Virus record (IMG/VR): IMGVR_UViG_3300034073_002641
Coordinates: 1 to 64,000 of that record
DNA from: an uncultured virus (IMG/VR IMGVR_UViG_3300034073_002641)
Taxonomy: Duplodnaviria; Heunggongvirae; Uroviricota; Caudoviricetes
Length of the DNA: 64,000 nt
Strand: one strand, 5' to 3'
The first letter of the stretch is position 1, and the number at the start of each line of letters is the position of its first letter. Below are positions 17,063 through 54,323 of the stretch, one piece after another. The position numbers were made by a program, and so were the translations under genes. Under the pieces are notes generated by a model. That model worked only from the letters and a program-made list of their open reading frames with translations, made no database searches and was not told the DNA's origin.

Positions 17063-17066
17063 TAAT

Positions 17067-17102
17067 AACCCCCTACTTCTTAATTGAGGTGGGGGGGTTT
17101 TT
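17067..17102 (+). terminator. intrinsic terminator
   Basis: AACCCCCTACTTC...GAGGTGGGGGGGTT followed by a T run. Confidence 0.7.
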
Positions 17103-17118
17103 AATTTAAAAAATTATT

Positions 17119-17403
17119 ATGGAATTTTTAAAAAAATTTAAAGAAAAGTTGGCTTATGATTTATCCAAAATAGAATTAAGCAGCCAACACAAAAGAAATA
17201 GTTTTAGTGGTGATATATTATATATTAGTGCAACTGAAAAACTAATTGATATTCCAACAGAAATTGTTTATTTAACAAAAAATGGATTTATTATTCATTT
17301 AATAAATTGTTTTGATGATAAATATATTGTAACAATTTACTTCAAACCATCACAATTGGATGAGGTTAAATTTTACATAAATAGTTTAAATAAAAAGTTA
17401 TGA
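17119..17403 (+). CDS. hypothetical protein
   Basis: 94-aa ORF. Confidence 0.55.
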   Translation: MEFLKKFKEKLAYDLSKIELSSQHKRNSFSGDILYISATEKLIDIPTEIVYLTKNGFIIHLINCFDDKYIVTIYFKPSQLDEVKFYINSLNKKL

Positions 17404-17684
17404 ATTATGAATTAGTTATTTATACAATGGAAGGATGTTCCCATTGTATAGAATTTAAGAAGTTATTAGAACAGGAGAATATCACTTATCATGATCGAGA
17501 TATTGACAAATATCATGAGGAGTATGATATGTATAGTAAGATAACCAAAACTGAATTTGTTCCATCAGTTATGTTAATTACAGATGCAAATTCACCAAAA
17601 GAAAAAACACATTTTTTTGCACCAACAAAAGAATATGAAACAATATTTGAAGCCCTAGATTTGGTAAAGAAAACAATACTATAA
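17400..17684 (+). CDS. glutaredoxin/thioredoxin-fold protein
   Basis: IYTMEGCSHC and VP motif. Confidence 0.85.
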   Translation: MNYELVIYTMEGCSHCIEFKKLLEQENITYHDRDIDKYHEEYDMYSKITKTEFVPSVMLITDANSPKEKTHFFAPTKEYETIFEALDLVKKTIL

Positions 17685-24644: not shown

Positions 24645-25547
24645 ATGAAAGATAATAAATTCATTTTGCTTACTGAAAGTCAAGTAAATATTTTAGATGA
24701 ACAAAGGCTAATCCAAGAATGCACAATTGCTGCTGTTAGATTAGATGATGGGAATGTTATAGCCAAAAACAGGGATAGGGGTTATTTGGCAAAGATGGAA
24801 ATTGTCCATGAGATTGTGGATGATGTTGAGGTTATGTATTGGAGAGATACAGAAACAGACTGGTCCGAGGGAATGAATGAATACGGTATTGGAATAGTTA
24901 ATTCAAGTCTATTGGTTAGGCAAGATGAGAAGGAAAGTAATAAAGTATTCAAGTCCAAGAAAGTTAAGAACTCCAATGATGGTAAGAAAATACGTAGAGC
25001 ATTAAGTTTTAGGAATTTAAAAGATGTGATTAAATCAATCATATCTTATGACGCAGATGATCCAAAGAATGTTGGAATTAAGGGGCAGACAATTGTTGGA
25101 AGCCCAAAGAATATATATATTATTGAACTCACAAGTAAGGACACTCCGGTCATAACAAAGATGGGTGATGATAAGGTTGAGGTAAGAACCAATCATGGCA
25201 TAGTACACAAAAAAACAGGTTATATTTATGGCATAAAGAAGAAGTCATCCCATTCAAGATTGGAGTTGGCCAAAAAGCATTTGCAAGATGCTCAAAAGGA
25301 TCAAGATGTTATTGATAAGATGAAAGAACAATATAAGAAAAATAAGTTCTTGAATCCTTATAGAATGAAGAATATGTATAATATGCAGACTGTGGGGCAG
25401 ATAATGATGAATTTGGATAAGAGAGAAATTACTATTAGAATGGATAATGAAATGGGGGAATTTGTTGGAATAGATAATAGATTGCCAAAAGGGTATAAAC
25501 CAAAAATATCTGTAAGAATAGAGGGTGAGAAAACAAATAGAAAATAA
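24645..25547 (+). CDS. Ntn-hydrolase (C45/choloylglycine hydrolase-like) with N-terminal leader
   Basis: CTIAA, AKNRD, EGMNEYG, RTNH, S..R. Confidence 0.7.
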   Translation: MKDNKFILLTESQVNILDEQRLIQECTIAAVRLDDGNVIAKNRDRGYLAKMEIVHEIVDDVEVMYWRDTETDWSEGMNEYGIGIVNSSLLVRQDEKESNKVFKSKKVKNSNDGKKIRRALSFRNLKDVIKSIISYDADDPKNVGIKGQTIVGSPKNIYIIELTSKDTPVITKMGDDKVEVRTNHGIVHKKTGYIYGIKKKSSHSRLELAKKHLQDAQKDQDVIDKMKEQYKKNKFLNPYRMKNMYNMQTVGQIMMNLDKREITIRMDNEMGEFVGIDNRLPKGYKPKISVRIEGEKTNRK

Positions 25548-26017
25548 TGGAAAAAGAAGCATTAAAAAGAATATTTGAGTTCCTTGAAAAGAAGGGAGAA
25601 CATAATACTCCATTCTTGTGGAAATGGGAAAATGGTGAGCCATTAACAGAAGAAGAATTAAATATTAAAGGTGATTTGGATTTACAGGATAGAAAAATTA
25701 CCTCATTACCAAAAGGCTTGAAAATTAGTGGTTGGTTAGATTTATCTCGTTCAAAAATAAAATCACTACCAGAAGGATTGGAAATTGGTGATAGTTTATT
25801 TTTAGTAAGAACAAGCATAACTTCATTACCAAAAGGATTGAAAGTTGGGGGGCATTTAGATGTAACTGAATCTGAACTACCTTATTACTATAAAAATGAT
25901 GATCATTTAAGAAAATCAATTGAACCTGGTTTTATAAAAGGTGATATAATTTCTGAATATTACATTGATTATGATTATGAAGATGAAGATGATTATGAAG
26001 AAGATGATGATAATTAA
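25547..26017 (+). CDS. LRR-like solenoid paralog 1 (3 repeats, acidic tail)
   Basis: Shared N-cap LKRIFEFL, SLP.GL.V.G repeats, PGFIKG C-cap. Confidence 0.85.
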   Translation: MEKEALKRIFEFLEKKGEHNTPFLWKWENGEPLTEEELNIKGDLDLQDRKITSLPKGLKISGWLDLSRSKIKSLPEGLEIGDSLFLVRTSITSLPKGLKVGGHLDVTESELPYYYKNDDHLRKSIEPGFIKGDIISEYYIDYDYEDEDDYEEDDDN

Positions 26018-26025
26018 TATATGAT

Positions 26026-26673
26026 ATGAAAAAAGAAACCTTAAAAAGAATATTTGAATTCCTAAAAGAGAAGGAAGGGTATAATCTACCAGTTAAATGG
26101 AAATTGATTAATAATATACCATTAACAAAAGAAGAGTTAAATGTTAAAGGGGATTTAATTTTTGAAGGATCAGAAATTACCTCATTACCAAAAGGGTTGA
26201 AGGTTGGGGGTAATTTAAGTTTATATGCTTCAAAAATAGAATCATTACCAGAAGGATTGGAAGTTGGAGAACATTTCAATTTATCATATTCAAGCATAAA
26301 ATATTTACCAAAAGGATTGGTAGTTGAAGAAGATTTAATTTTATCATACACATCCATTGAGATACTGCCAAAAGATTTGGAGGTTAATGGGAGTATTGAT
26401 TTGGCTTTTTCAAAAATACAATCTTTACCAAAAGGTTTAAAGGTTGATGGTTATCTTGCTTTAAATAGTTGTACAACATTAAAATCATTACCCCAAGGAC
26501 TTACAGTTAGTGAGCATTTGGATTTATCAGGCACAAAAATAACCTCATTACCAAAAGGATTAGAAATTGGTGAACACCTATTTATATTAGGTACGGCATT
26601 AGAAGAATATTCAGATAATCAATTAAGAGAAATGGTTAAACCTGGATTTATAAAAGGAGGAATATTTAGATAA
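26026..26673 (+). CDS. LRR-like solenoid paralog 2 (7 repeats)
   Basis: Same caps and repeats. Confidence 0.85.
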   Translation: MKKETLKRIFEFLKEKEGYNLPVKWKLINNIPLTKEELNVKGDLIFEGSEITSLPKGLKVGGNLSLYASKIESLPEGLEVGEHFNLSYSSIKYLPKGLVVEEDLILSYTSIEILPKDLEVNGSIDLAFSKIQSLPKGLKVDGYLALNSCTTLKSLPQGLTVSEHLDLSGTKITSLPKGLEIGEHLFILGTALEEYSDNQLREMVKPGFIKGGIFR

Positions 26674-27086
26674 TGAAAAAAGAAGCATTAAAAAGAATAT
26701 TTGAATTCCTTGAAGAAAAGGAAGAACACAATCCACCATTCTTATGGAAATGGAAAAATGAAATACCATTAACAGAAAAAGATTTAGATATTGAAGGTGA
26801 TTTGGATTTGACATATTCAAATATAGAATCACTACCAGAAGGATTGGAAGTTAGTGGTGATTTGATTTTAAGTTTTTGTGATAATATAAGTTCATTACCA
26901 GAAGGGTTAATAGTTAGAGGTAATTTGATTTTACAAAATTGTTACAACTTACACTCATTACCTGAAGGATTGAAAGTTGGTGGCACTTTATACATTGATA
27001 CATCACCATTAGGTGAATATAGTAATAGTGAATTGAGAAATATGGTTGGAGATGATGGGTATTTAAAGAGGATTCATTACTTTTAA
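26673..27086 (+). CDS. LRR-like solenoid paralog 3 (3 repeats)
   Basis: Same N-cap; divergent C-cap. Confidence 0.85.
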   Translation: MKKEALKRIFEFLEEKEEHNPPFLWKWKNEIPLTEKDLDIEGDLDLTYSNIESLPEGLEVSGDLILSFCDNISSLPEGLIVRGNLILQNCYNLHSLPEGLKVGGTLYIDTSPLGEYSNSELRNMVGDDGYLKRIHYF

Positions 27087-27121
27087 GACTCCTAACTATA
27101 CTAATAATCAACATTTTATGC

Positions 27122-27151
27122 TCACAGAGGGAAATCAATTTCCCTCTGTGA
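27122..27151. terminator. hairpin terminator between convergent genes
   Basis: TCACAGAGGGGAAAT...ATTTCCCTCTGTGA inverted repeat. Confidence 0.7.
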
Positions 27152-27160
27152 AAAACCCAT

Positions 27161-27415
27161 CTAAAGAATTTGATTTTTGTTTGGAGGTGGAAACATTCTA
27201 TCTTTTAACAAGAAAAATATGCCCCATACTTGGATTATAACAACACTTAAATTCACAATGATTATTGGGTGGTCTTTTGTATAAAAGCCATACACAAGCC
27301 AAACAAATGACCCTAAAACATTAACTAGTCTAATGGTTAGAATGTCCTTAAATGTGAAAGATGTGATTGTGATGATTGTGGCAATAAAGCCAATGATTTT
27401 AATATACTGATCCAT
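27161..27415 (-). CDS. small membrane protein (YgjV/PQ-loop-like)
   Basis: Three hydrophobic helices; IR.VN.LG...W.VYG. Confidence 0.55.
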   Translation of the reverse strand: MDQYIKIIGFIATIITITSFTFKDILTIRLVNVLGSFVWLVYGFYTKDHPIIIVNLSVVIIQVWGIFFLLKDRMFPPPNKNQIL

Positions 27416-27417
27416 TT

Positions 27418-27714
27418 TTAGAATTTTAAAAAGTTGATAATATTGATTAAGCGTTTTAGTTTTATATTCAGTTCATTAAGTCTTTCCCCAGATGATTCCA
27501 TTTCATTTATTAGTTTAGTTAGGGATGGTGTGATGGTAGATAATTCTTGGAGCATATCATCATTTTTTTTATTAATGATAGATCTCTCCATATTTCTTAA
27601 TGTTAATAAAGTATTTTCAAGATGAGTTTTTTCTACCTTGGATAAATTCTCATTATATCTTTCATTTTCAACATTTGTAATTGAAGTATGTATTTCTTTT
27701 AACAGGTATTCCAT
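27418..27714 (-). CDS. hypothetical coiled-coil protein
   Basis: 98-aa ORF in the minus-strand operon. Confidence 0.5.
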   Translation of the reverse strand: MEYLLKEIHTSITNVENERYNENLSKVEKTHLENTLLTLRNMERSIINKKNDDMLQELSTITPSLTKLINEMESSGERLNELNIKLKRLINIINFLKF

Positions 27715-27715
27715 A

Positions 27716-28609
27716 TTATTTTAATTCTTTAATTATTTGGTTTATTTCAACTATGGTTTTTGCTAATTCTTTTATTTCATTTATAGTATCAATAGTTGAA
27801 TTTTTTTTATTAATTTCTTCCACCATTATTTTATGAGAATCTCTTAAATTAATCATACAAATAATTAAATTATCTTTTAATTCTTTTATGCTAGATAAAT
27901 CTGATTTTAATTTGATATAATCCAAATCAGTATAAATACTAGTTCTATTTGATTGTTGTATATAACTCAAGTAGTTTATTGATAACATCTTATCTTCATT
28001 ATCAATGATAGCATTTAAGTTTTTAGAATCCAAATATGAAATAATATTATTTGATACATTTGTTATTAATGTGTCAGAAGAATTTAATAATATTTTTATC
28101 TCTTTACTTTGTTTTTGGTTTATATAAATTCTTCCAGAAACTACTCCTATTTTAGCCCCTATATTTACGAAACCGGTTGGAGTGTTAAATGATGTTAATT
28201 TATTATTTAGGTTTATTAAGGATTCTAAATCATATTCAAGTTCTTTTATATTGTTATATAAATCATCAACATAAACATCTGATGATAAGGCCAATAATAT
28301 TTTTGAGTATGTATTAAGAATTTCAAATGAGTTTTGAAATAAAATGGTTTTTCTTTCATCCAATTTTTGTTGTGCGTATATGCTATCTAATTCTGTTAGG
28401 TGTAATGATGGTGTTGATAATGTATTGGCAAAATATACACCCCTACTTTTCCTCACATTGGATAATGTTTGGTTGAACTTTAAGGAATACTTTGGTAAAT
28501 CCTTGGTTGAGGTTGCAAACTGGTGGACATATGTCTTTTTCGTGTGGGATAATGTGTTACAACTCTGTATTACAATAGTTAATAAAATAAATGTTATAAA
28601 CTTTTTCAT
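27716..28609 (-). CDS. putative lipoprotein
   Basis: MKKFITFILLTIVIQSC lipobox-like start; TATTTAT upstream. Confidence 0.65.
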   Translation of the reverse strand: MKKFITFILLTIVIQSCNTLSHTKKTYVHQFATSTKDLPKYSLKFNQTLSNVRKSRGVYFANTLSTPSLHLTELDSIYAQQKLDERKTILFQNSFEILNTYSKILLALSSDVYVDDLYNNIKELEYDLESLINLNNKLTSFNTPTGFVNIGAKIGVVSGRIYINQKQSKEIKILLNSSDTLITNVSNNIISYLDSKNLNAIIDNEDKMLSINYLSYIQQSNRTSIYTDLDYIKLKSDLSSIKELKDNLIICMINLRDSHKIMVEEINKKNSTIDTINEIKELAKTIVEINQIIKELK

Positions 28610-28857
28610 TTTTTTACCATAAATACTATTTTTTTGAAAAAAAGATTTGGTGGTTTGAATTATTTGCTGTAAATTTGCATCAACAAAACAACCAACCACT
28701 ATGAGAAAGCCGCAAGTGTTAGAATTGACAGAAAAAAAGACAGGCAGGGTGTTTGTGCGTGAGTTCAAGACAAAAAAAGAATGTGATAGGTTTCTTCGTA
28801 ATAGTTATACTACATATTCTTGGAAAATACTTTAAAACCAAACTAAACAAAATTAAA

Positions 28858-29100
28858 ATGAGAACAGAAGTTAGAGAAAAAGAAAGAGAAATTGAATCAG
28901 TAGGTGTATTGTGGGCATGGGGCAATAATTGTAAATTATACTGTGTTGCTAGCGAACATGAGTCAGAATTCCAGTGGTGGATGTTTGGTGAAACAGGAAT
29001 GCATATGGTCATCAATAGGGGCGGATCTTACCCATATGCTTGTGAGAGGGTTAGAAACCATTGGGATGGGTTTAGAAAAAATCAACCAGAATTGGTGTAG
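28858..29100 (+). CDS. hypothetical protein
   Basis: Start taken at MRTEV; preceded by a 44-aa ORF at 28701-28835. Confidence 0.5.
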   Translation: MRTEVREKEREIESVGVLWAWGNNCKLYCVASEHESEFQWWMFGETGMHMVINRGGSYPYACERVRNHWDGFRKNQPELV

Positions 29101-29156
29101 AAAAATTTGGTCAATTCATTTCTTTGTATTAAATTTGCATCAACAAAACAACCAAC

Positions 29157-29492
29157 ATGAAAATCATAACAGCAATCAAACCTTTACTTGAAGACAAATT
29201 AGAATTTAACCCACAGGAAACAATGGGTTGGCTCACATATAATCAACCTGTGTTCTGGTCTTTTGGTGTGTCAAAAACAATAAATTTAAGCAACAAGGGT
29301 TTGCTTTTAAGAGTGTCTGCCCGTAGGCACAAAGGCTGGGTTTTAATTACATTAAATGGTAGTGATTTGTATGATGTGTATTTGGTGAATACTCTTGGAA
29401 GAGTTAAGAAAGAAATCAAAGATGTATATTGTGATGGGTTATTGGATACAATAGATGATTCAATTGAAAGAATTCCAGAGTATGTAATCTAG
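29157..29492 (+). CDS. hypothetical protein
   Basis: HKGWVLITL...DLYDV, DVYCD.L...ID..IE. Confidence 0.65.
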   Translation: MKIITAIKPLLEDKLEFNPQETMGWLTYNQPVFWSFGVSKTINLSNKGLLLRVSARRHKGWVLITLNGSDLYDVYLVNTLGRVKKEIKDVYCDGLLDTIDDSIERIPEYVI

Positions 29493-29508
29493 TGTTAAAA
29501 AGAATCAA

Positions 29509-29595
29509 TGGGTGAACCACACTTCCAGGAGTAGCCTGCCAATAGGGCTTCTGATAAGAAAGGTCAATGTGTGGCTATGATGATGACCTAACCCA
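29509..29595 (+). ncRNA. putative structured RNA with pseudoknot
   Basis: Four complementary pairings in an intergenic region (see findings). Confidence 0.45.
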
Positions 29596-29668
29596 GAAAA
29601 TAATGAAAAAAATATTTGGTTAATTCAATCTTTTACTTTAAATTTGCATCAACAAAAAAAACAAGACT

Positions 29669-29935
29669 ATGACACATAACATTAGAGTAATTTACAAGAA
29701 TGAGAATTTAATCAATGAGAATTTTGTTGATAAGACACAGTTCAAGTTATTCCTAAAATCTATACACGGATCCTTACAGTTAAAGAATACCCTCCAGTTC
29801 TATAATGGAAATGATTTCTTAATCAATGTTCCTTATAAGATTTTATCCAAATGTGTCATCTTGACAAAAGTGGAGGATTATACAATCACAGATCATATAA
29901 TCAACAAATCAAAGATTGAAACTTTAGTAGATTGA
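29669..29935 (+). CDS. hypothetical protein
   Basis: 88-aa ORF; GC hairpin at 29942-29970 follows. Confidence 0.6.
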   Translation: MTHNIRVIYKNENLINENFVDKTQFKLFLKSIHGSLQLKNTLQFYNGNDFLINVPYKILSKCVILTKVEDYTITDHIINKSKIETLVD

Positions 29936-29998
29936 TTAAAACCCCCTACTCAAATGCCTGGGTAGGGGGGATTATTAACTAAACAAAAAAAAATAATA

Positions 29999-31018
29999 AT
30001 GGAAAGGAAACTTGCAAGCGTTAGAAAAATATCAGATTTAAAGCCTATTGAAGGTGCTGACAACATTGAACTAGCCATTGTTGATGGATGGCAAGTTGTT
30101 GTTGCCAAGAATGTTGAACATAAGGTGGGTGATTTCATTGTGTATTGTGAGATTGATTCCTTCTTACCCATTAGGGAAGAGTTTGAATTTTTAAGGAAAT
30201 CTTCATATAGGAAATCAACTGAAGCAGAGGGTTTTCGATTGAGAACTATAAAAATGAGGGGGCAAATCTCCCAGGGGTTGATATTGCCTATTTCTGTTTT
30301 AGGTTCTGAAATATCTCTTGAAGAGGGTATGGATGTGACAGAAATGTTGGGTATTGTGAAGTATGAAACACCAATTTCACCTGAACTTTCTGGGCTGGCA
30401 AAAGGAATGTTTCCATCCTTCATTTCCAAGACAGATGAAATTAGAGCCCAGAATATTCCAAATGATTATAAGACATATATAGAATCAAATGATGATTTCT
30501 ATATAACAGAAAAACTGGATGGATCCTCTGCAACATTCTACATAAACAATGGTGAGTTTGGGGTTTGTTCAAGAAATCTTGAACTATTGGAAACAGAGGG
30601 GAATACTTTCTGGAAGGTTGCAAGGGAACTTGATTTGGAGAACAAGATGAGAGCCAAAAACAAGAACTTTGCAATACAAGGTGAGTTGATTGGTGAGGGC
30701 ATCCAGGGAAATCGCTACAAGATAAAAGGTCATACAGTTAGGTTCTTTACAGCATTTGACATTGATGCTCACAAAAGGTTTAATTACGCAGAGTTTGCTA
30801 TGTTTATGGCCCAGAACCAGTTGGAGGTTGCACCACTCTTATCAATTAGGGCTGGAACAGATTTGCCAAAAACAATTGATGAGTTATTGAAGTTTGCCGA
30901 AGGTAAGTCATCCTTGAATGAAAAAACAGAAAGAGAAGGTATTGTAATTAGGACATCTGACAATGTTATTTCATTTAAAGCCATTAGCAATAAGTTCTTA
31001 TTGAAGGACAAAAACTAA
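29999..31018 (+). CDS. ATP-dependent RNA ligase, Rnl2/DRB0094-like
   Basis: N-terminal IEGADNIE module; TEKLDGSS, QGEL.G, EGIV and FKAIS ligase motifs. Confidence 0.9.
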   Translation: MERKLASVRKISDLKPIEGADNIELAIVDGWQVVVAKNVEHKVGDFIVYCEIDSFLPIREEFEFLRKSSYRKSTEAEGFRLRTIKMRGQISQGLILPISVLGSEISLEEGMDVTEMLGIVKYETPISPELSGLAKGMFPSFISKTDEIRAQNIPNDYKTYIESNDDFYITEKLDGSSATFYINNGEFGVCSRNLELLETEGNTFWKVARELDLENKMRAKNKNFAIQGELIGEGIQGNRYKIKGHTVRFFTAFDIDAHKRFNYAEFAMFMAQNQLEVAPLLSIRAGTDLPKTIDELLKFAEGKSSLNEKTEREGIVIRTSDNVISFKAISNKFLLKDKN

Positions 31019-31046
31019 TAATCTTCTTGGACATTTTTTAAATTTA

Positions 31047-31079
31047 AAAAAACTCTTGGATTAGTCTAGGGGTTTTTTT
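31047..31079 (+). terminator. intrinsic terminator
   Basis: AAAAAACTCTTGGA...TCTAGGGGTTTTTTT. Confidence 0.65.
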
Positions 31080-31110
31080 ATTTTGTATATTTATTGTAAT
31101 AAATTTTATA

Positions 31111-31581
31111 ATGAAAAAAGAACAACTAAAAAGAATATTTGAATTCCTTGAAGAGAAGGAAAAACATAAAGTGCCGTTTATATTTAAAGTCAAATGTGAA
31201 ATACCATTCACAAAAGAAGAATTAAATATTAAGGGTCGTTTGTATTTATTTGATTCAAAGATAACCTCATTACCAGAAGGATTGAAAGTTAGTGGTGATT
31301 TGGTTTTATCATATTCTGAAAAATTAAATTCATTACCAAAAGGATTAAAAGTTGGTGGAGCATTAAATTTACTTCATACCAGAATAACATCATTACCAGA
31401 AGGTTTGAAAGTTGGTGGTGGTTTGAATTTAGCTTATTGTAATAACATAACCTCATTACCAGAAAGTTTATATGTTGATGGTGATTTGAATATTCGTTAT
31501 ACACCATTAACAAAATACACAGATGATGAATTAAGAGAAATGATTAAACCTGGGTTTATAAAAGGAGAAATATATAGATAA
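31111..31581 (+). CDS. LRR-like solenoid paralog 4 (4 repeats)
   Basis: Caps and repeats; TATTTAT at 31088. Confidence 0.85.
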   Translation: MKKEQLKRIFEFLEEKEKHKVPFIFKVKCEIPFTKEELNIKGRLYLFDSKITSLPEGLKVSGDLVLSYSEKLNSLPKGLKVGGALNLLHTRITSLPEGLKVGGGLNLAYCNNITSLPESLYVDGDLNIRYTPLTKYTDDELREMIKPGFIKGEIYR

Positions 31582-32048
31582 TGGAAAAAGAAGCATTAAA
31601 AAGAATATTTGATTTCCTTGAAAGGAAGGGAGAACATAAAACACCATTTAAATGGAAATTAGTAAATAATGAGCCAATAGTAAAGGAAGATTTAAATGTT
31701 ACAAGTGATTTGAATTTAGCATTTTCAAAAATAAAATCCTTACCAGAAGGTTTGAAAGTTGTTGGTGATTTGAATTTATCTTATACACCTAAATTAAAAT
31801 CATTACCAAGTGATTTAGATGTTAAAGGTGATATATACTTGGAAGGCTCAATAATAGAATCATTACCAGAAGGGTTAAAAGTTGGTGGTGATTTGGATTT
31901 AACATATACAGATATAAAATCATTACCAAAAGGATTGGAAGTTGGTGGTGATTTACATTTGGAATTGACAACAATGATGAAATATGAACGTTATGAATTA
32001 TTAGAAATGATAAAACCTGGATTTGTGAAAGGAAAAATACATAAATAA
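31581..32048 (+). CDS. LRR-like solenoid paralog 5 (4 repeats)
   Basis: Caps and repeats; TAATG coupling. Confidence 0.85.
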   Translation: MEKEALKRIFDFLERKGEHKTPFKWKLVNNEPIVKEDLNVTSDLNLAFSKIKSLPEGLKVVGDLNLSYTPKLKSLPSDLDVKGDIYLEGSIIESLPEGLKVGGDLDLTYTDIKSLPKGLEVGGDLHLELTTMMKYERYELLEMIKPGFVKGKIHK

Positions 32049-32587
32049 TGCAAAAAGAACAACTAAAAAGAATATTTGAATTCCTTGAAGAGAAGGAAAA
32101 TAAATTGGCCAAAGTAAAAGGAACTTTGAGATGGAAAATTGAATTTAATGAGCCATTAACAAAGGAAGATTTGGATATTAAAGGTGGTTTGTTTTTAGAA
32201 CATTCAGATATACCCTACTTACCAGAAGGTTTAAAAATTGGTGGCAATTTGAATTTATCTTATACACCTAAATTAAAATCATTACCAAGTGATTTATATG
32301 TTAGACGTGATATATATTTGGAAGGTTCAAACATAACCTCATTACCAGAAGATTTGCAAGTTGGTAGGGATTTGGATTTATCAGATACACAAGTGGAATT
32401 GCTTCCAAAAGGTTTGCAAGTTGGTGGCACTTTGGATTTAAGAAGAACAAAGATAACCTTATTGCCAAAAGGGTTGGAAGTTAAAGGTGAGTTGATTATT
32501 AAAAATACAGCATTATTAGAATACATAGATAAAGAATTAAGAGATATGATTAAACCTGGATTTATAAAAGGGGAAATAATAAGATAA
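32048..32587 (+). CDS. LRR-like solenoid paralog 6 (5 repeats, mosaic)
   Basis: Caps and repeats. Confidence 0.85.
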   Translation: MQKEQLKRIFEFLEEKENKLAKVKGTLRWKIEFNEPLTKEDLDIKGGLFLEHSDIPYLPEGLKIGGNLNLSYTPKLKSLPSDLYVRRDIYLEGSNITSLPEDLQVGRDLDLSDTQVELLPKGLQVGGTLDLRRTKITLLPKGLEVKGELIIKNTALLEYIDKELRDMIKPGFIKGEIIR

Positions 32588-33366
32588 TGGAAAAAGAAGC
32601 ATTAAAAAGAATATTTGAATTTCTTGAAGATAAGGAAAAGAAATCACACCAAGCAAAAGGGACATTACTATGGAGAATAGTCTTTAATGAGCCATTAACA
32701 AAGAAAGATTTGGATATTAAAGGTGATTTGAATTTGAGTATGAAAGACATAACCTCATTACCAAAAGGATTGAAAGTTGGTGGTAATTTAAATTTACAAT
32801 GGTCAAATATAATCTCTTTACCAGAAGGGTTGGAAGTTGGTGGTAATTTGGATTTATCTTATACGTCAATAAAAACACTACCAAAAAGTTTGAAAGTTGG
32901 ATCATTAAATTTAATGCGTTCAGAAATAGAATCATTACCAGAAGGCTTAAAAGTTGATGGTGTTCTAAATTTATTAGATACAGGTATAAAATCATTACCA
33001 AAAGGATTGGAAGTTGGTGGTGAGTTATATTTACGAGAGTCAAAGATAGAAACATTACCAGATGATTTGAAAGTTAATGGTAAATTGAATTTAGCATATT
33101 GCAAAGAATTAACTTCATTACCAGAAGGATTGGAAGTTTGGGGTGATTTGTTATTATTTGGTTGCGAGCAAATAAAATCATTGCCAGAAGGTTTGAAAGT
33201 TGGTGGTGATTTATTATTGCAATATACAACAATAAAGTCATTGCCAAAAGGATTAGAAGTTTTTGGAGATTTAATGTTGGAATATTCATCTTTAAATGAA
33301 CTTACTACTTATAAATTAAGAAAGATGATTCAACCTGGATTTATAAAAGGAAAAATAAAAAGGTAA
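32587..33366 (+). CDS. LRR-like solenoid paralog 7 (9 repeats)
   Basis: Caps and repeats. Confidence 0.85.
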   Translation: MEKEALKRIFEFLEDKEKKSHQAKGTLLWRIVFNEPLTKKDLDIKGDLNLSMKDITSLPKGLKVGGNLNLQWSNIISLPEGLEVGGNLDLSYTSIKTLPKSLKVGSLNLMRSEIESLPEGLKVDGVLNLLDTGIKSLPKGLEVGGELYLRESKIETLPDDLKVNGKLNLAYCKELTSLPEGLEVWGDLLLFGCEQIKSLPEGLKVGGDLLLQYTTIKSLPKGLEVFGDLMLEYSSLNELTTYKLRKMIQPGFIKGKIKR

Positions 33367-33773
33367 TGAAAAAAGAAGTATTAAAAAGAATATTTGATTT
33401 CCTTGAAAGGAAAGGGGAACATAAAGCACCATTTATTTGGAAGTTGAAAAATAATATACCACTAACAGAAGATGAATTAAATGTTAAAGGTGATTTGATT
33501 TTAACAGATATAAATATAACATCATTGCCAGAAGGCTTGAAAGTTGAGGGTACTTTGGAATTAGATGAAACAATAATAAAATCATTACCAGAAGGGTTGG
33601 AAGTTGGTGGTAATTTGGATTTATCTGGTTCATTAATAAATTCACTACCAAAAGGCTTGAAAGTTGGTGGTAAATTGTATATCTATAGAACACCCATAAG
33701 TGAAGATTATTATCATGAGGATATAATAGAAATGATAAAACCTGGATTTATAAAAGGTGAAATAATAGGATAA
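33366..33773 (+). CDS. LRR-like solenoid paralog 8 (3 repeats)
   Basis: Caps and repeats. Confidence 0.85.
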   Translation: MKKEVLKRIFDFLERKGEHKAPFIWKLKNNIPLTEDELNVKGDLILTDINITSLPEGLKVEGTLELDETIIKSLPEGLEVGGNLDLSGSLINSLPKGLKVGGKLYIYRTPISEDYYHEDIIEMIKPGFIKGEIIG

Positions 33774-34471
33774 TGAAAAACGAAGCATTAAAAAGAATAT
33801 TTGATTTCCTTGAAAGGAAAGGGGAACATAAAGTGCCATTAAGATGGAAGTTTATAAACAATCAACCATTAACAAAAGAAGAATTAATTGTTGATGATGA
33901 TTTGGATTTGTCGTATAGTAACGTAACCTCATTACCAGAAGGCTTGAAAGTTTATGGTGATTTGCACTTGGATATGACCAAATTTTTAAAATCACTACCA
34001 GAAGGCTTGGAAGTTGGGGGTGATTTGGACTTAAACGCATCAAGTATAAAATCATTACCAAAAGGATTAAAAGTTACGGGTAATTTAAATTTAAATAATT
34101 CAAAAATAACCTCATTACCAGAAGGCTTGGAAGTTTATCGTAATTTGAGTCTTCTTGGTTCAGAAATAACTTCATTACCAAAAGGTTTAAAACTCCAGGG
34201 TAGTTTGGATTTAATAAAATCAAAAATAGAATCATTACCAGAAGGATTGGTAGTTTGGGGCAACTTGTGGTTGAATAACACAAAAATAAACTCATTACCA
34301 GAGGATTTAAAAGTTGGCCAAGACTTGGATTTATCTATGTTATCAATAAAAACATTGCCAAAAGGATTGGCAGTTGGGGGTGATTTGTTTATAGCAATAA
34401 AATACACAGATGATGAAATAAGAGAAATGATAAAACCTGGATTTGTATTAGGAAGAATAAGAAGACCATGA
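33773..34471 (+). CDS. LRR-like solenoid paralog 9 (8 repeats)
   Basis: Caps and repeats. Confidence 0.85.
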   Translation: MKNEALKRIFDFLERKGEHKVPLRWKFINNQPLTKEELIVDDDLDLSYSNVTSLPEGLKVYGDLHLDMTKFLKSLPEGLEVGGDLDLNASSIKSLPKGLKVTGNLNLNNSKITSLPEGLEVYRNLSLLGSEITSLPKGLKLQGSLDLIKSKIESLPEGLVVWGNLWLNNTKINSLPEDLKVGQDLDLSMLSIKTLPKGLAVGGDLFIAIKYTDDEIREMIKPGFVLGRIRRP

Positions 34472-34983
34472 GAGCAGAACAATTAAGCAAGATATTCAAA
34501 TTTCTCAAAGAGAGAGAGAATGTGGATCAACCTATAAGAATGGTAAACTTCATTCTTAAGCAAGATTTGGTTGATGAACTTGAAGCATATTCAAGTGATA
34601 AAAGATATGTATATGATGGTTATTTAGATGTAAATAATTCTGATATAAGAAAATTGCCAAATGACTTATATATTAAGGGTACAATGAACTTGAGTTTTTG
34701 CAAAGAGTTAATAAATCTACCAGATAGATTATATGTTCAAGATGATTTATATTTAGATTATACTAATATATCAAGTCTTCCAGACAATTTGTATGTTGGG
34801 CAGAATTTATATATTATGGGATGTAATGAAATAACAAATGTGCCAAATAATTTGTACATTTATAATAATTTTTATATTGCTAATACTCCACTTGCCAAAT
34901 CATATACAGTTGATCAGTTATATAACAAGATTGAATCAACTGGTGGCCAAGTGGGTGGAGAAATAGATGATGAATGGGAGTAA
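34468..34983 (+). CDS. LRR-like solenoid paralog 10 (divergent, 4 LP.NLY repeats)
   Basis: LSKIFKFLKE N-cap; LPNDLY/LPDNLY repeats. Confidence 0.75.
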   Translation: MRAEQLSKIFKFLKERENVDQPIRMVNFILKQDLVDELEAYSSDKRYVYDGYLDVNNSDIRKLPNDLYIKGTMNLSFCKELINLPDRLYVQDDLYLDYTNISSLPDNLYVGQNLYIMGCNEITNVPNNLYIYNNFYIANTPLAKSYTVDQLYNKIESTGGQVGGEIDDEWE

Positions 34984-34986
34984 CTT

Positions 34987-35751
34987 ATGGAAAAAGAGCA
35001 ACTAAAAAGAATATTTGAATTCCTTGAAGGAAAAGGAGAACATAAAGTGCCATTTATTTGGAAGTTAATAAATAATCAACCATTAACAGAAGAAGATTTA
35101 AATGTTAAAGGTGATTTGGATTTTTCAGATTCAAATATAGAATCACTACCAGAAGGATTGAAAGTTGGAGGTGATTTGAATTTAACTGAATCAGATATAG
35201 AAACATTACCAGAAGGTTTGGAAGTTGGTGGTAGCCTATATTTGGATCATAGTCTTATAAAATCATTACCAAGGGGATTAAAAGTTGGGGTTGATTTAAC
35301 TTTATCATATGCAAACATAACCTCATTACCAGAAGATTTGCAAGTTGGTGGTTCTTTGGATTTATCAGATACACAAGTGGAATCACTTCCAAAAGGTTTG
35401 CAAGTTGGGGGTATTTTAATTGTGAAATACACAGAATTAGATAGGTTAACAAAAATACCAAATGGTTTAAAAATTGGTGGATTAATAACTTCAAAAACTT
35501 TTATTACTAACACTTTGGATATTAAAGGTGATTTGGATTTAACTGGGTTGGGGACTATTTCATTACCAGAAGGATTAAAAGTTGGTGGGTATTTAAATAT
35601 ATATAACACCAATGTGACACCGATTCCAAAAGGTTTGCAAGTTGGGGGTGATTTATTTATCCGAGCAAGTGTATTTGCAATGGATTTAGATGATGAAGAA
35701 TTAAGAGAAATGATTAAACCTGGGTTTATAAACGGAAGAATAGTAAGATAA
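34987..35751 (+). CDS. LRR-like solenoid paralog 11 (about 8 repeats, interrupted)
   Basis: Caps and repeats; an internal LDIKGDLDL suggests fusion of two units. Confidence 0.85.
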   Translation: MEKEQLKRIFEFLEGKGEHKVPFIWKLINNQPLTEEDLNVKGDLDFSDSNIESLPEGLKVGGDLNLTESDIETLPEGLEVGGSLYLDHSLIKSLPRGLKVGVDLTLSYANITSLPEDLQVGGSLDLSDTQVESLPKGLQVGGILIVKYTELDRLTKIPNGLKIGGLITSKTFITNTLDIKGDLDLTGLGTISLPEGLKVGGYLNIYNTNVTPIPKGLQVGGDLFIRASVFAMDLDDEELREMIKPGFINGRIVR

Positions 35752-36278
35752 TGGAAGAAGAACAACTAAAAAGAATATTTGAGTTCCTTGAAGAGAAGGA
35801 AGGTCACAAAGTACCATTTTTATGGAAATTTAAGAATGAAATGCCATTAACAAAAGAAGAATTAATTGTTAAAGGTAATTTGAATTTAAAAGGTTCAAAA
35901 ATAACATCATTGCCAGAAGGATTGGAAGTGGGGGGTTCCTTGAGTTTGATTGGTTTAGCCATAACCTCATTACCAAAAAGTTTAAAAGTTGATGGTATAA
36001 TATATTTAAAAAATAGTAAAATAACTTCACTACCAGAAGGTTTTAAAGTTGGGCGTGACTTGTCGTTATTTGGCTGTGAACAAATAACATCATTACCAGA
36101 AGGATTGAAAGTTGGCGGTAATTTGGATTTAAGACATACAAAAATAACTTCATTACCAAAAGGATTGGAGGTTGGTACATATTTGTATATTTATGGAACA
36201 AATTTAGCCAAATACACAGATGATGAGATAAGAGACATGATTAAACCTGGGTTTATAAAAGGAAATATATATAGATAA
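35751..36278 (+). CDS. LRR-like solenoid paralog 12 (5 repeats)
   Basis: Caps and repeats. Confidence 0.85.
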   Translation: MEEEQLKRIFEFLEEKEGHKVPFLWKFKNEMPLTKEELIVKGNLNLKGSKITSLPEGLEVGGSLSLIGLAITSLPKSLKVDGIIYLKNSKITSLPEGFKVGRDLSLFGCEQITSLPEGLKVGGNLDLRHTKITSLPKGLEVGTYLYIYGTNLAKYTDDEIRDMIKPGFIKGNIYR

Positions 36279-36985
36279 TGGAAGAAGAACAATTAAAAAG
36301 AATATTTGAGTTCCTTGAAGAGAAGGAGAAGCGTAGAGCACCATTTTTGTGGAAACATATGAATGATATACCGTTAACAGAGAAAGATTTAACCATTGAA
36401 GGTGATTTGGATTTAGAATATACAAATATAACCTCATTACCAGAAGGTTTTAAAGTTGGGGGTGATTTGTATTTAGCACAATCAAAAATAACCTCATTAC
36501 CAGAAGGTTTGGAAGTTGGGGGTCATTTGAGTTTGAACGACACAGACATAACTTCATTACCTAAAGGATTAAAAGTTAAAATGGATTTGAATTTAGAATA
36601 TACAAATATAACTTCATTATCAGAAGGATTGAAAGTTGGGGGTAATTTGAGTTTATATGATTCAAACATAACCTCATTACCAGAAGGCTTGGAAGTTGGG
36701 GGTAATTTGGATTTATCATATACAAAGATAACCTCATTACCCAAAGGTTTTAAAGTTGGGCGTGATTTGTCATTATTTGGCTGTGAACAAATAACATCAT
36801 TACCAGAAGGATTGAAAGTTGGTGGTAATTTGGATTTAAGACATATAAAAATAACCTCATTACCAAAAGGCTTAAAGGTTGGGGGTATGTTGTATATGGG
36901 TAGTACAAAATTAGAAAAATATACAGATGAAGAATTAAGAGAAATGATTAAACCTGGGTTTATAAAAGGAAAAATATATAGATAA
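36278..36985 (+). CDS. LRR-like solenoid paralog 13 (8 repeats)
   Basis: Caps and repeats. Confidence 0.85.
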   Translation: MEEEQLKRIFEFLEEKEKRRAPFLWKHMNDIPLTEKDLTIEGDLDLEYTNITSLPEGFKVGGDLYLAQSKITSLPEGLEVGGHLSLNDTDITSLPKGLKVKMDLNLEYTNITSLSEGLKVGGNLSLYDSNITSLPEGLEVGGNLDLSYTKITSLPKGFKVGRDLSLFGCEQITSLPEGLKVGGNLDLRHIKITSLPKGLKVGGMLYMGSTKLEKYTDEELREMIKPGFIKGKIYR

Positions 36986-37716
36986 TGATTATAGTAATAG
37001 GAGAAAGTTGTAGAGACATATATGTTTACACAAAAAGCACAAGGTTATCACCAGAAGCACCTGTTCCGGTATTAATTCCAACACATAAGGTTAAGGCTGG
37101 TGGGATGGCTATGAATGTATATAATAATGTTATTAATATGGATTCAAATGTGAGCATAAGGTTAATTACACAGAAGAATAAGATAAAGAAGAAGAGGTAT
37201 GTTGATGAGAAAACCAATCATTCTTTTATAAGGGTTGACACAGGTGAGGATAATGTTGATTCTTATTATGGTGACATTGATAACAAATATGGTATCACTA
37301 TTATTAGTGATTACAATAAGGGTTATTTGACTAATGATGATATTGTTAAAATAGCAAAGCAATCCAAGACAACCATATTGGATAGCAAGAGGAGATTAAC
37401 AGATGATATTATCAATAGCATTGATTATATTAAACTAAACCAGGATGAGTATGAGAACAATAAGGATTTGATTAATAATCAGAATAGAGAGAAGTTTATC
37501 ATAACAATGGGTGGTAATGGAGTTTCCCATAATGGTATAGTTTACATGCAAGAGAAAAATGCCCCCACCATTGACATAAGTGGAGCAGGAGACACTTTTA
37601 CCGCTGCCTTGGCATTATCCCTATATAAGAATGAAAGCATCATAGAAGCCATAAGAACAGGAAATAAGATGGCATATAAAGTTGTGTTAAAGAGGGGAAC
37701 AAGTTTGCCAGATTAG
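36985..37716 (+). CDS. PfkB-family kinase, RfaE/HldE heptose kinase-like
   Basis: RLSPEAPVPV, GG.A.NV, SDYNKG, D.SGAGDTF. Confidence 0.85.
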   Translation: MIIVIGESCRDIYVYTKSTRLSPEAPVPVLIPTHKVKAGGMAMNVYNNVINMDSNVSIRLITQKNKIKKKRYVDEKTNHSFIRVDTGEDNVDSYYGDIDNKYGITIISDYNKGYLTNDDIVKIAKQSKTTILDSKRRLTDDIINSIDYIKLNQDEYENNKDLINNQNREKFIITMGGNGVSHNGIVYMQEKNAPTIDISGAGDTFTAALALSLYKNESIIEAIRTGNKMAYKVVLKRGTSLPD

Positions 37717-37780
37717 TGTCAAGTTTTTTACAATAGAAACTGGACATCATAAATCTTTTTTTTTAAATTTTAAAAAAAAA

Positions 37781-38329
37781 ATGAAAACACAGATAATTAA
37801 TTTATTTGCTGGTCCAGGTGCTGGAAAAAGCACTATTGCTAGTGGTTTGATGTATGAATTAAAGAAACAACATATTAGTGTTGATAATCCATATGAGTTT
37901 CCCAAAAACTTGGCTTGGGATGAAAATACAGGTGCAATAAAGGATCAGTTTTATATTACAGCAAATCAGCATAGGAATATTGTTAGGTCTTATGGTAAGG
38001 TTGATTTTGTTATATGTGATTCACCAATATTGTTTGCACTTGTTTATAAGGAAAAATACAAGAAGGAGGGGGATTTCATATCATCTCTATATGGTAAAGA
38101 ATTTGATTCATTTATAGTTAATTTATTTAATAGATATGATAATGTTAATTATTTTCTTGAACGTAATTTAAATTCATCATATGATGAGGGGGAAAGGTTT
38201 CAGACATTGGATGAATCAATAATAATTGATAAAGAGATAAAAGATATGTTGGATTTGTATGGCGTTAAATATGAAACCATAAGTGTTGATGATGAAACTG
38301 TTGGGAGAATATTAAATCAAATTATATGA
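37781..38329 (+). CDS. P-loop nucleotide kinase (AAA_28/NadR-like)
   Basis: GPGAGKST and ICDSP. Confidence 0.75.
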   Translation: MKTQIINLFAGPGAGKSTIASGLMYELKKQHISVDNPYEFPKNLAWDENTGAIKDQFYITANQHRNIVRSYGKVDFVICDSPILFALVYKEKYKKEGDFISSLYGKEFDSFIVNLFNRYDNVNYFLERNLNSSYDEGERFQTLDESIIIDKEIKDMLDLYGVKYETISVDDETVGRILNQII

Positions 38330-46640: not shown

Positions 46641-46726
46641 AGTCAGGTGGCGGAATGGTAAACGCTATACTTAAGCAGTTGAAGCTGGGTAATTCAACAA
46701 TATAGGTTCGAATCCTATCCTGACCA
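46641..46726 (+). ncRNA. tRNA-like RNA 8
   Basis: AGTCAGG/CCTGACC acceptor, Leu-type D arm, GTTGAA/TTCAAC hairpin, T arm. Confidence 0.6.
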
Positions 46727-46766
46727 CAAAACTTTTAAAACTTAATATTTATATATAAAATAAAAT

Positions 46767-47318: not shown

Positions 47319-47634
47319 GAAAATAATATGTGCTGCTATTTGGTATAAAAACATTGAACTTAAAAAGGAATTACCAATTGAGGTTTATCTTCCAGCAAAC
47401 CTTGATAGGGGTATTGTTTTTAGTGGCCATAGGCATGGGCAATGTATTTACACAAAATATGCTATTACAGGGTTAAGAGATGCTGAAAGTGGTGAAAATG
47501 AACAAGGGTTTTTGACATCAAAAAATAGGTTTGTTAGCCGTGAAGAGGGGCTTCAAATTGCATTACAAGAAAACCAGGTAATTGATTTATCCCAAATTAG
47601 GGGCAACAGATTGTTTTCAGAAGACTTATATTAA
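47311..47634 (+). CDS. hypothetical phage protein (ICAAI...G.RH...QGFLTS.NRFV.R.E...LFSEDLY)
   Basis: Motif pattern typical of phage accessory proteins. Confidence 0.65.
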   Translation: MNEKIICAAIWYKNIELKKELPIEVYLPANLDRGIVFSGHRHGQCIYTKYAITGLRDAESGENEQGFLTSKNRFVSREEGLQIALQENQVIDLSQIRGNRLFSEDLY

Positions 47635-48269: not shown

Positions 48270-48296
48270 TGGATATATTTATTGTAAAAGAACTAT

Positions 48297-50018: not shown

Positions 50019-50032
50019 ATAAAAAGAAGATT

Positions 50033-50434: not shown

Positions 50435-50438
50435 TATT

Positions 50439-53984: not shown

Positions 53985-54323
53985 ATGGAAAAAGAACAAT
54001 TTAAAAAAATATTTGTATTCCTTGAAGAAAAGGAAAAACAAAAAGCACCATTAAAATGGAAATTAATAAATAATGAACCATTAAGAAAAGAAAATTTGGA
54101 TATTGAAATTACAGGATCAGATAAATTTTATGTCAATTATCAAATTACTATTGATGGTAAATTAATTGAAATTGAAGGTATTTTAAATCAATTTGGCACT
54201 GGTAGGAGCGAAGAACACGAATTTGAACCTACTTATTTTATGGATGATGAAACAGAACAATATTATAATAATAATTGGGAAAAAGTTGAAGATGAAATTT
54301 TAAATAAATTTTATAATGATTAG
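53985..54323 (+). CDS. chimeric protein: LRR-family N-cap fused to an unrelated acidic domain
   Basis: MEKEQFKKIFVFLEEKEKQKAPLKWKLINNEPLRKENLDI, then no repeats. Confidence 0.7.
   Translation: MEKEQFKKIFVFLEEKEKQKAPLKWKLINNEPLRKENLDIEITGSDKFYVNYQITIDGKLIEIEGILNQFGTGRSEEHEFEPTYFMDDETEQYYNNNWEKVEDEILNKFYND

What the first reader, a model, noticed from the sequence alone, without database searches (positions are those of the whole stretch)
25547..36985. Repertoire of 13 variable LRR-like solenoid proteins with constant caps
Seen: three genes at 25.5-27.1 kb and ten at 31.1-37.0 kb, mostly TAATG-coupled. They share an N-cap (M.KE.LKRIF.FL..K....P..WK.....PLT...L.(I/V).G.L) and mostly a C-cap (Y.D.ELREMIKPGFIKG.I.R). 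Between the caps are 3-9 copies (about 70 in total) of a ~21-aa repeat I.SLP(E/K)GL.VGG.L.L... The framework is almost invariant, including at DNA level (TCATTACCAGAAGG), while the residues around xLxLxx differ in nearly every repeat. Established: in LRR proteins the xLxLxx strand forms the concave binding face, and lamprey VLRs use the same constant-cap/variable-module layout. Inference: a phage-encoded library of diversified binders, for example against host defence proteins. The repeat itself is common in phage hypothetical proteins; the capped, expanded array is the notable part.
Basis: partly seen in the sequence, partly recalled or inferred. Interest (0 to 1): 0.88.

Follow-up and report, generated by a model that had tools for sequence, protein, structure and literature searches.

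The report
Phage gene arrays of capped LRR proteins
An uncultured freshwater giant phage carries 13 neighbouring genes here, and about 40 in its whole genome, for small leucine-rich-repeat proteins with fixed ends and a fast-changing surface; they look like an inherited set of protein binders, but what they bind is unknown.

Summary
Thirteen + strand ORFs (three at 25.5-27.1 kb, ten at 31.1-37.0 kb) share an N-cap, and 11 of 13 share the C-cap. Between the caps lie 71 repeats of 20-21 aa with a fixed framework and five hypervariable positions. The fold is a confident LRR-type beta-solenoid. The closest solved relative is Vibrio FlrP (PDB 8Z5U). The window shows only part of the set. A 270-kb genome that is 99.995% identical over 21 kb has 41 family ORFs in nine places, 8.2% of its DNA.

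The phage is a T4-type myovirus, probably of Saprospiraceae (Bacteroidota). Paralogs are old. Most have closer relatives in other phages than in their own genome, and gene content changes between close strains.

The key test of the "diversified library" idea was not met. Across 65 independent close gene pairs, dN/dS at the variable positions is 0.97 (framework 0.31), which is fast but not above neutral. No reverse transcriptase was found, and the genes are complete rather than assembled from cassettes.

Best reading: cytoplasmic protein binders aimed at host proteins, target unknown. This scan already found the same family on other phage DNA. My literature searches found no paper describing it.

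The parts
25547..26017 (+). LRR gene 1 of the first array (156 aa, 3 repeats, acidic C-terminal tail)
26026..26673 (+). LRR gene 2 (215 aa, 7 repeats)
26673..27086 (+). LRR gene 3 (137 aa, 3 repeats, divergent C-cap). Against its L003 ortholog it shows 9 non-synonymous and 2 synonymous changes, 6 of the 9 at variable positions
31045..31080 (+). Terminator-like hairpin between the RNA ligase gene and the second array
31111..31581 (+). LRR gene 4 (156 aa, 4 repeats); the member that was folded (pLDDT 93)
31581..32048 (+). LRR gene 5 (155 aa, 4 repeats)
32048..32587 (+). LRR gene 6 (179 aa, 5 repeats)
32587..33366 (+). LRR gene 7 (259 aa, 9 repeats). Its nearest relative in L004 (65% aa) lies in the other array there
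33366..33773 (+). LRR gene 8 (135 aa, 3 repeats)
33773..34471 (+). LRR gene 9 (232 aa, 8 repeats)
34468..34983 (+). LRR gene 10, the divergent member (171 aa, 31% identical to gene 1, no C-cap motif)
34987..35751 (+). LRR gene 11 (254 aa, 8 repeats with one irregular stretch)
35751..36278 (+). LRR gene 12 (175 aa, 5 repeats). Its 3' part is 82% identical in DNA to that of gene 13
36278..36985 (+). LRR gene 13 (235 aa, 8 repeats)
53985..54323 (+). Chimeric ORF: the family's N-cap joined to an unrelated small domain whose other relatives lack the N-cap

Best explanation
The genes encode small cytoplasmic LRR-type beta-solenoid proteins. Each has a helical N-cap, 3-9 repeats of 20-21 residues, and a C-terminal half-repeat cap.

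The framework residues (I..LP.GL.V..L.L) build the solenoid core. Positions 13, 15, 17, 18 and 20 of each repeat lie on the strand that forms the concave face in classical LRRs and on the loop after it. They differ in nearly every repeat.

I read the 13 genes (about 40 in the whole phage) as an inherited panel of protein binders. Each paralog would have its own surface and would bind host proteins during infection, for host takeover or counter-defence.

The panel is shaped by old duplications, by gain, loss and movement of whole genes between strains, and by near-neutral or diversifying change on the binding face.

Shown: the fold class, the variability pattern, the family size, the turnover between strains, and purifying selection on the framework. 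Inferred: that the variable face binds ligands, that the ligands are host proteins, and that the purpose is counter-defence.
For: - Fold: AlphaFold2 mean pLDDT 93, pTM 0.84, with two short strands per repeat. VIA-align gives Z 14.1 to FlrP (8z5u_0; rmsd 2.9, 131 residues aligned, 31% identity), followed by many LRR proteins at Z 8-12. The family profile hits FlrP at E 3e-48, and also SlrP, SspH1, IpaH7.8 and VLRs.
- Variability: entropy is above 3 bits at the five positions against below 1.3 bits on the framework. D, N, Y and S make up 52% of the 355 variable residues.
- Selection: dN/dS is 0.31 on the framework and 0.97 at the variable positions in 65 independent pairs. Neighbouring genes show about 0.1.
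- Retention: 34 of 42 distinct genes of this phage group have a closer relative in another phage group than any paralog at home, and 21 of them match at 88-100% aa.
- All 41 family ORFs in the 270-kb genome are open.
- In longer relatives the same repeat type is joined to other domains: NEL E3 ligase in 3 of the 120 listed proteins, PcfJ-like in 22 of 120, and DUF6745 in 1 of 120. Amidoligase_2 occurs in one top hit. From established knowledge, in NEL effectors the LRR is the substrate-binding part.
- The N-terminus is acidic and helical, with no hydrophobic stretch that could be a signal peptide.
- Turnover between strains is shown.
Against: - dN/dS at the variable sites is not above 1, so drift of unconstrained surface residues explains the variability equally well.
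- The one burst seen (6 non-synonymous and 0 synonymous changes at the variable sites of 26673-27086) gives Fisher p 0.013-0.023 without correction for 65 pairs.
- No target, partner or expression class was identified. No exact host-type promoter lies before either array.
- Cover in RNA libraries is limited to short contigs, which may be DNA carry-over.
- I placed the variable residues on one face from the repeat register and DSSP, not from model coordinates, which I could not read.
- No match to any known defence model, and none of my four literature searches for the family found a described function.
Confidence: 0.5

Rival explanations
1. The proteins are packaged into the head and injected with the DNA, like the T4 internal proteins. 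The conserved N-cap would act as the common targeting signal. The binder role would stay the same, but delivery and timing would differ.
For: The phage has a Gp23-type capsid protein, a portal, a tail sheath and an S8 protease. The N-cap is shared by 232 ORF products in the loci fetched, and it was even grafted onto an unrelated small protein at 53985-54323. One three-gene array (G001 103126-104846) lies between the capsid and portal genes on the same strand. The T4 internal-protein precedent is recalled, not tested here.
Against: The N-cap is predicted as a folded helical cap packed on the solenoid (pLDDT 76-91 in blocks), not as a free leader. No protease site or proteomic data exist. Most arrays lie among non-structural genes.
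Confidence: 0.15
2. The arrays are dispensable filler of hyperplastic regions. The family spreads by recombination at its conserved DNA, and the variable face simply drifts, with no specific ligand.
For: dN/dS is about 1 at the variable positions at all depths examined. Genes are gained, lost and moved between close strains. The framework DNA motif recurs 54 times in the two arrays. A chimera was made with the N-cap.
Against: The framework is under purifying selection (0.31). All 41 ORFs are intact and take up 8.2% of the genome. Individual paralogs are kept at 88-100% aa identity across phage groups. The family has 2555 hits at E<=1e-5 in metagenomes.
Confidence: 0.15
3. The constant caps dock on a common machine, and the variable LRR selects substrates for it. 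The machine could be the phage's ClpB-like AAA+ protein or a host protease. This would be analogous to F-box-LRR or ankyrin-PRANC adaptors.
For: Both ends are conserved across paralogs that are otherwise 45-63% identical. The genome encodes a ClpB-like AAA+ protein and a subtilase. LRR-NEL relatives show that this repeat type is used as a targeting arm.
Against: Much of each cap is explained structurally as a terminal half-repeat. The caps evolve faster than the framework (0.60 against 0.31). There is no Pfam F-box or other adaptor match. The alignment to FBXL2 covers only model residues 34-156. No co-occurrence test was done.
Confidence: 0.07

Closest known systems
FlrP of Vibrio alginolyticus (PDB 8Z5U/8Z5W/8Z60; bioRxiv 10.64898/2025.12.04.692373, passages read)
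   Same: Same repeat consensus (..LP.GL.V.G.L.L) and the same beta-solenoid. Profile E 3e-48; VIA Z 14.1, 31% identity over 131 residues.
   Different: By the paper's passages read, FlrP has a Sec signal peptide, is periplasmic and binds the flagellar rod. It lacks the phage N-cap and C-cap: the profile matches only positions 36-134.
LRR domains of IpaH/SspH/SlrP-type NEL E3-ligase effectors
   Same: A short bacterial-type LRR with an LP motif, used as the substrate-binding arm. Three of the 120 longer relatives listed carry a NEL domain. There are weak direct matches to SlrP, SspH1 and IpaH7.8.
   Different: The window proteins have no NEL domain and no other enzymatic domain. NCBIfam scores of 22-36 bits are far below the cut-offs of over 1000.
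Variable lymphocyte receptors of lampreys and hagfish
   Same: Capped LRR with a variable number of modules and variable residues on the strand face. The profile gives weak matches to VLR chains.
   Different: VLRs are assembled somatically from cassettes and have cysteine-rich caps (recalled). Here every gene is complete and inherited, and the caps have no conserved cysteines. The arrays are identical in three assemblies.
Tandem LRR gene clusters of plant NLR/R genes
   Same: Tandem arrays, birth-and-death turnover, and variability concentrated in xxLxLxx.
   Different: Plant clusters typically show dN/dS above 1 at those sites (recalled); here it is about 1. There is no NB-ARC or other signalling domain.
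Hyperplastic regions of T4-type phages with PeSL-mediated shuffling (PMC2839356, PMC4122927; search listing and abstract starts only)
   Same: Variable accessory genes grouped between conserved core genes of a T4-type myovirus, and changing between close relatives.
   Different: Here one family fills the regions. I did not test for PeSL elements; only a promoter-like repeat near 28.6-29.7 kb was seen.
Multigene repeat-protein families of large eukaryotic viruses (poxvirus ankyrin/PRANC, giant-virus repeat expansions; recalled)
   Same: A virus spends a sizeable share of its genome on paralogous repeat proteins with a constant terminal module.
   Different: Different repeat type and a different host domain. 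No known partner of the constant module is identified here.

Membership tests
Leucine-rich repeat (LRR) superfamily | Tandem repeats of 20-30 residues | tested here: met
   71 repeats in the window; 115 of 121 spacings, pooled with the 15 L003/L004 genes, are 20 or 21 aa
Leucine-rich repeat (LRR) superfamily | Conserved segment LxxLxLxx(N/C/T)xL | tested here: met
   L14-x-L16-x-x-(T/S/C)19-x-I1-x-x-L4-P5. Position 19 is T in 31, S in 23 and C in 10 of 71 repeats, and never Asn among the top residues. The first hydrophobic position is shifted by one (V10)
Leucine-rich repeat (LRR) superfamily | Solenoid fold with a parallel beta-sheet | tested here: met
   AF2 pLDDT 93 with periodic strands. 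VIA gives Z 8-14 to about 50 LRR entries. Foldseek alone gave no match at E<=0.001
Leucine-rich repeat (LRR) superfamily | Reaches the gathering score of a Pfam LRR model | tested here: not met
   0 of 13 reach it; the best is LRR_4 at 23.3 bits against 27
FlrP-like periplasmic LRR proteins | Shared repeat consensus and fold | tested here: met
FlrP-like periplasmic LRR proteins | N-terminal Sec signal peptide | tested here: not met
   The N-termini are acidic helical caps without a hydrophobic stretch. No dedicated signal-peptide predictor was available
FlrP-like periplasmic LRR proteins | Binds the flagellar rod | not testable with these tools
   -
Variable lymphocyte receptors | Incomplete germline gene completed somatically from flanking cassettes | tested here: not met
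   All 13 are complete ORFs with their own start and stop. The array is identical in three assemblies
Variable lymphocyte receptors | Cysteine-rich LRRNT and LRRCT caps | tested here: not met
   No conserved cysteine in either cap
NEL (IpaH-type) E3-ligase effectors | C-terminal NEL domain | tested here: not met
   No Pfam NEL match in any of the 13. It is present only in three longer relatives
Diversity-generating retroelement targets | Reverse transcriptase in the genome | tested here: not met
   RVT_1 gives 0 matches in the 270-kb, 90%-complete genome, while the control rang in 3 of 14 genomes
Known anti-phage defence proteins (PADLOC) | Match to a defence model | tested here: not met
   0 of 16 proteins matched

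The most novel reading that the evidence does not exclude
A giant phage of Saprospiraceae keeps a germline repertoire of about 40 capped LRR binders, 8% of its genome. It would use them as a panel of inhibitors against variable host immune or surveillance proteins. Each paralog would be matched to a different target and possibly delivered early through the shared N-cap. That would make it a phage counterpart of a host innate-receptor repertoire, and a natural library of small, cysteine-free binding scaffolds.
Probability: 0.2. Interest if true: 0.85.

Novelty: new variant of a known kind. Interest (0 to 1): 0.6.

Why it matters
If the proteins are binders of host factors, this is one of the largest single-family investments known in a phage genome: 41 ORFs, 22 kb, 8.2%. 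It belongs to a family with thousands of members in freshwater viromes that no Pfam, PHROG or NCBIfam model names. None of my four literature searches for the family found a description of it.

Finding the targets would open a new class of phage-host interaction factors in Bacteroidota. It would also give a set of small, well-folding binding scaffolds without disulfides.

If the variable face merely drifts, the family is still a clear case of how T4-type phages fill their variable regions.

Tried and rejected
- Homodimer test (complex prediction, two copies of 31111-31581 with alignment A2): the verdict was 'no answer', so nothing can be drawn from it.
- F-box idea for the N-cap, a resemblance seen by eye: no Pfam match, and the FBXL2 alignment covers only model residues 34-156. 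Dropped.
- DNA-mimic idea: the 13 proteins have pI from 4.4 to 8.9 and the net charge of their variable residues runs from -8 to +1. They are not uniformly acidic. Dropped.
- DGR idea: no reverse transcriptase.
- Recent gene conversion within the window: the best paralog pair is 82% identical over 300-425 nt, and the rest are 60-79%. No long identical blocks were found.
- Late-promoter motif TATAAATA: 26 matches against 15.4 expected, none just upstream of either array. The sigma-70 scan found fewer sites than the shuffles.
- Megablast of 29000-37800 against cultured phages found nothing. The 782-aa neighbour gave only distant hits.
- An ADP-ribosyltransferase-like reading of the head of P0130, made by eye, has no Pfam support. 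Dropped.
- The 'PcfJ' literature search was swamped by C. elegans plasmid names.
- Parts of the arrays without cover in the RNA libraries, and the many joints in the DNA contigs of two runs, cannot be interpreted. Contigs break in repeats.
- Two Saprospiraceae/Haliscomenobacter genomes gave no family match. This is weak evidence, because there was no positive control.
- This genome had no earlier notes in the scan.
Full report
OBSERVATION

The 13 ORFs are at the stated coordinates, all on the + strand. A MAFFT alignment shows the shared N-cap in 13 of 13. M1, E4, L6, I9, F10, F12 and L13 are invariant. A PGF(I/V)xG-type C-cap is present in 11 of 13; 26673-27086 and 34468-34983 diverge.

Anchoring on the LP motif gives 71 repeats, 3-9 per gene. 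Of 121 measured spacings, pooled over these genes and the 15 L003/L004 genes, 82 are 20 aa and 33 are 21 aa.

In the frame I1-T2-S3-L4-P5-E6-G7-L8-K9-V10-G11-G12-x13-L14-x15-L16-x17-x18-T19-x20:
- entropy exceeds 3 bits at positions 13, 15, 17, 18 and 20;
- entropy is below 1.3 bits at positions 1, 3, 4, 5, 7, 8, 10, 14 and 16.

Of these, 54 are inside the arrays, against 0.49 expected by chance. Of 11 junctions within the arrays, 8 are TAATG overlaps.

WHAT THE PROTEINS ARE

No Pfam model reaches its cut-off in any of the 13; the best is LRR_4 at 23.3 bits against 27. PHROGs gives only two families of unknown function, in 6 of 13. NCBIfam gives weak matches to the LRR part of SlrP, SspH2 and XopL.

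AlphaFold2 on 31111-31581 with 52 relatives gives pLDDT 93 and pTM 0.84. The model has helices in residues 3-38, two short strands per repeat (at K9-V10 and L14-x15), and a terminal hairpin made by the C-cap.

Foldseek found nothing at E<=0.001. VIA-align over 48,161 chains puts FlrP of Vibrio alginolyticus first (8z5u_0: Z 14.1, rmsd 2.9, 131 residues, 31% identity). LRR proteins follow at Z 8-12. The family profile hits FlrP at E 3e-48 over profile positions 36-134 only.

The passages I read of the FlrP preprint describe a Sec-exported periplasmic LRR protein bound to the flagellar rod. The phage proteins share the repeat type. They lack a signal peptide and have their own caps.

The variable positions correspond to x3, x5, x7, x8 and x10 of the classical LxxLxLxxNxL segment. 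That segment is the concave strand and the ascending loop. This placement rests on the repeat register and DSSP; I could not read the model coordinates.

THE GENOME AND THE SIZE OF THE FAMILY

The window lies in a 76,755-base IMG/VR record rated 26% complete. Two other records are 99.995% and 100% identical to the window over 21 kb.

One of them, G001, has 270,075 bases and is rated 90% complete. It has 41 ORFs matching the family profile, in nine places. The array sizes are 8, 6, 3, 2, 7, 1, 1, 10 and 3. Together they cover 22,077 bases, 8.2% of the genome. One of the 41 is the N-cap-only chimera.

G001 encodes the following:
- a Gp23-type major capsid protein;
- portal, large terminase and tail sheath;
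- UvsX-like recombinase and DNA polymerase;
- a ClpB-like AAA+ protein and an S8 subtilase.

It is therefore a T4-type jumbo myovirus.

Its 1107-aa outer-membrane beta-barrel gene is 80% identical to a gene of a Saprospiraceae MAG and 70-73% identical to Haliscomenobacter genes. Nearly all of the 71 loci found are Bacteroidota. The Bacteroidota promoter consensus (recalled) occurs 18 times against 5.9 expected, 17 of them on the gene strand. A Bacteroidota host, probably Saprospiraceae, is likely but inferred.

Fourteen studies of freshwater, wastewater, runoff and subsurface samples hold the stretch.

DISTRIBUTION

- The large protein collection gives 2555 proteins at E<=1e-5 among 6131 candidates. 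None of the 120 listed has a functional name, and most are 154-160 aa with both caps.
- The nearest Atlas clusters are 97-100% viral.
- Among 1.84 billion cluster representatives, 1025 match at E<=1e-30. Most top hits are long proteins matched only over the LRR part.
- Among the 120 longer relatives listed, 22 carry a PcfJ-like domain, 3 a NEL E3 ligase domain and 1 DUF6745. One top hit carries Amidoligase_2.

The repeat type therefore serves elsewhere as an arm attached to other domains.

EVOLUTION

Paralogs in the window are 60-82% identical in DNA, with no long identical blocks.

Of 42 distinct genes of this phage group, 34 have a closer relative in another phage group than any paralog at home, and 21 of them match at 88-100% aa. 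The duplications are therefore old, and the paralogs are kept individually.

Gene content still changes between relatives:
- L003 (97% identical in the shared flank) has three extra genes at the head of the first array.
- One of these is 95% identical in DNA to the lone family gene at 174 kb of G001. The other two have no close counterpart there.
- L004 (ligase 61% identical) has 6 + 6 genes around the ligase, with different content.
- Of the 80 loci fetched with the ligase gene, 75 have no family gene within 10 kb.

No reverse transcriptase is present.

SELECTION

For 63 independent nearest-neighbour repeat pairs:
- dN/dS is 0.93 at the five variable positions (bootstrap 0.65-1.33);
- dN/dS is 0.27 on the framework.

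For 65 independent same-length gene pairs between contigs, 80-99.9% identical:
- 0.97 at the variable positions (bootstrap 0.62-1.56);
- 0.31 on the framework;
- 0.60 in the caps and unclassified parts.

Neighbouring genes show about 0.1.

One gene, 26673-27086, differs from its L003 ortholog by 9 non-synonymous and 2 synonymous changes. Six of the nine are at variable positions, and five of the L003 states (four of them at variable positions) are shared with L004. Fisher p is 0.013-0.023, which does not survive correction for 65 pairs.

The variable face therefore evolves about as fast as silent sites. That is much faster than ordinary surfaces, but there is no demonstrated excess of non-synonymous change.

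READING

The best-supported explanation is an inherited panel of cytoplasmic LRR binders directed at host proteins (confidence 0.5). Three rivals remain:
- injected internal proteins that use the N-cap as a signal (0.15);
- drifting filler of hyperplastic regions (0.15);
- cap-docked adaptors for a protease or ATPase (0.07).

Expression is unresolved. A terminator-like hairpin precedes the second array, and no exact host-type promoter precedes either array. Two metatranscriptome libraries hold only short contigs, 95-99% alike, over parts of the LRR genes and their neighbours, and these could be DNA carry-over.

EARLIER WORK

This scan found the same family before on other phage DNA, in eight notes. 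Those notes give the same closest relative (FlrP) and the same reading of ordinary recombination.

- the FlrP match (made before I read the notes);
- the family's share of the genome;
- the absence of a diversity machine.

I add here:
- the dN/dS result;
- the orthology of paralogs across phage groups;
- the translocated gene;
- the N-cap chimera;
- the host hint.

My literature searches found no paper describing the family. Supplements were not consulted.

Noticed in passing
window 53985-54323: A 112-aa ORF just after a C-5 cytosine methylase gene. It joins the LRR family's N-cap to a small domain whose eight other relatives (57-71% identical overall) have a different N-terminus. It looks like a recombination chimera, and it is conserved in the closest strains.
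   Followed up: yes
window 28646-28688, 29106-29148, 29615-29657: Three copies of a ~50-nt element ending in an exact 18-nt core, each just upstream of a small ORF. The element fits the Bacteroidota promoter consensus TTTG-N20-TAnnTTTG (recalled). Window-wide the consensus occurs 18 times against 5.9 expected, 17 of them on the + strand and often just before start codons.
   Followed up: partly
window 46641-53017: Eight tRNA genes (Leu, Thr, Tyr, Arg, His, Cys, Gln, Lys) in three groups.
   Followed up: no
G001 49892-53215 (locus L150:11892-15215): The phage encodes a 1107-aa outer-membrane beta-barrel protein with a CarboxypepD_reg domain. It is 80% identical to a Saprospiraceae MAG gene and 70-73% identical to Haliscomenobacter genes. 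It is probably a captured host gene and the best host clue.
   Followed up: partly
window 55942-56958: A DUF6745 protein (27.9 bits, cut-off 27). The same domain is found fused to this LRR repeat type in one metagenomic protein (P0233).
   Followed up: no
L003 3655-4248 versus G001 174051-174665: A family gene at the head of the array in a 97%-related strain is 95% identical in DNA to a lone family gene about 50 kb away in this phage. A whole gene has moved or been copied between loci.
   Followed up: yes
G001 16410-17600, 116792-118804, 144005-145054: An IS-type transposase (phrog_506, E 3.8e-133), a ClpB-like AAA+ protein (670 aa) and an S8 subtilase, all encoded by the phage.
   Followed up: no
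window 6004-6804 and 14879-15775: A sigma-70 family factor (regions 2 and 4) and a full DnaJ (J domain, zinc-finger domain, C-terminal domain), both encoded by the phage.
   Followed up: no
L163 4043-4786 (Edwardsiella phage Edno5, Edno5_0047): A cultured temperate phage has one gene with seven nearly identical repeats of the same type but different ends. It lies between the repressor genes and exo/recT in the early operon.
   Followed up: partly
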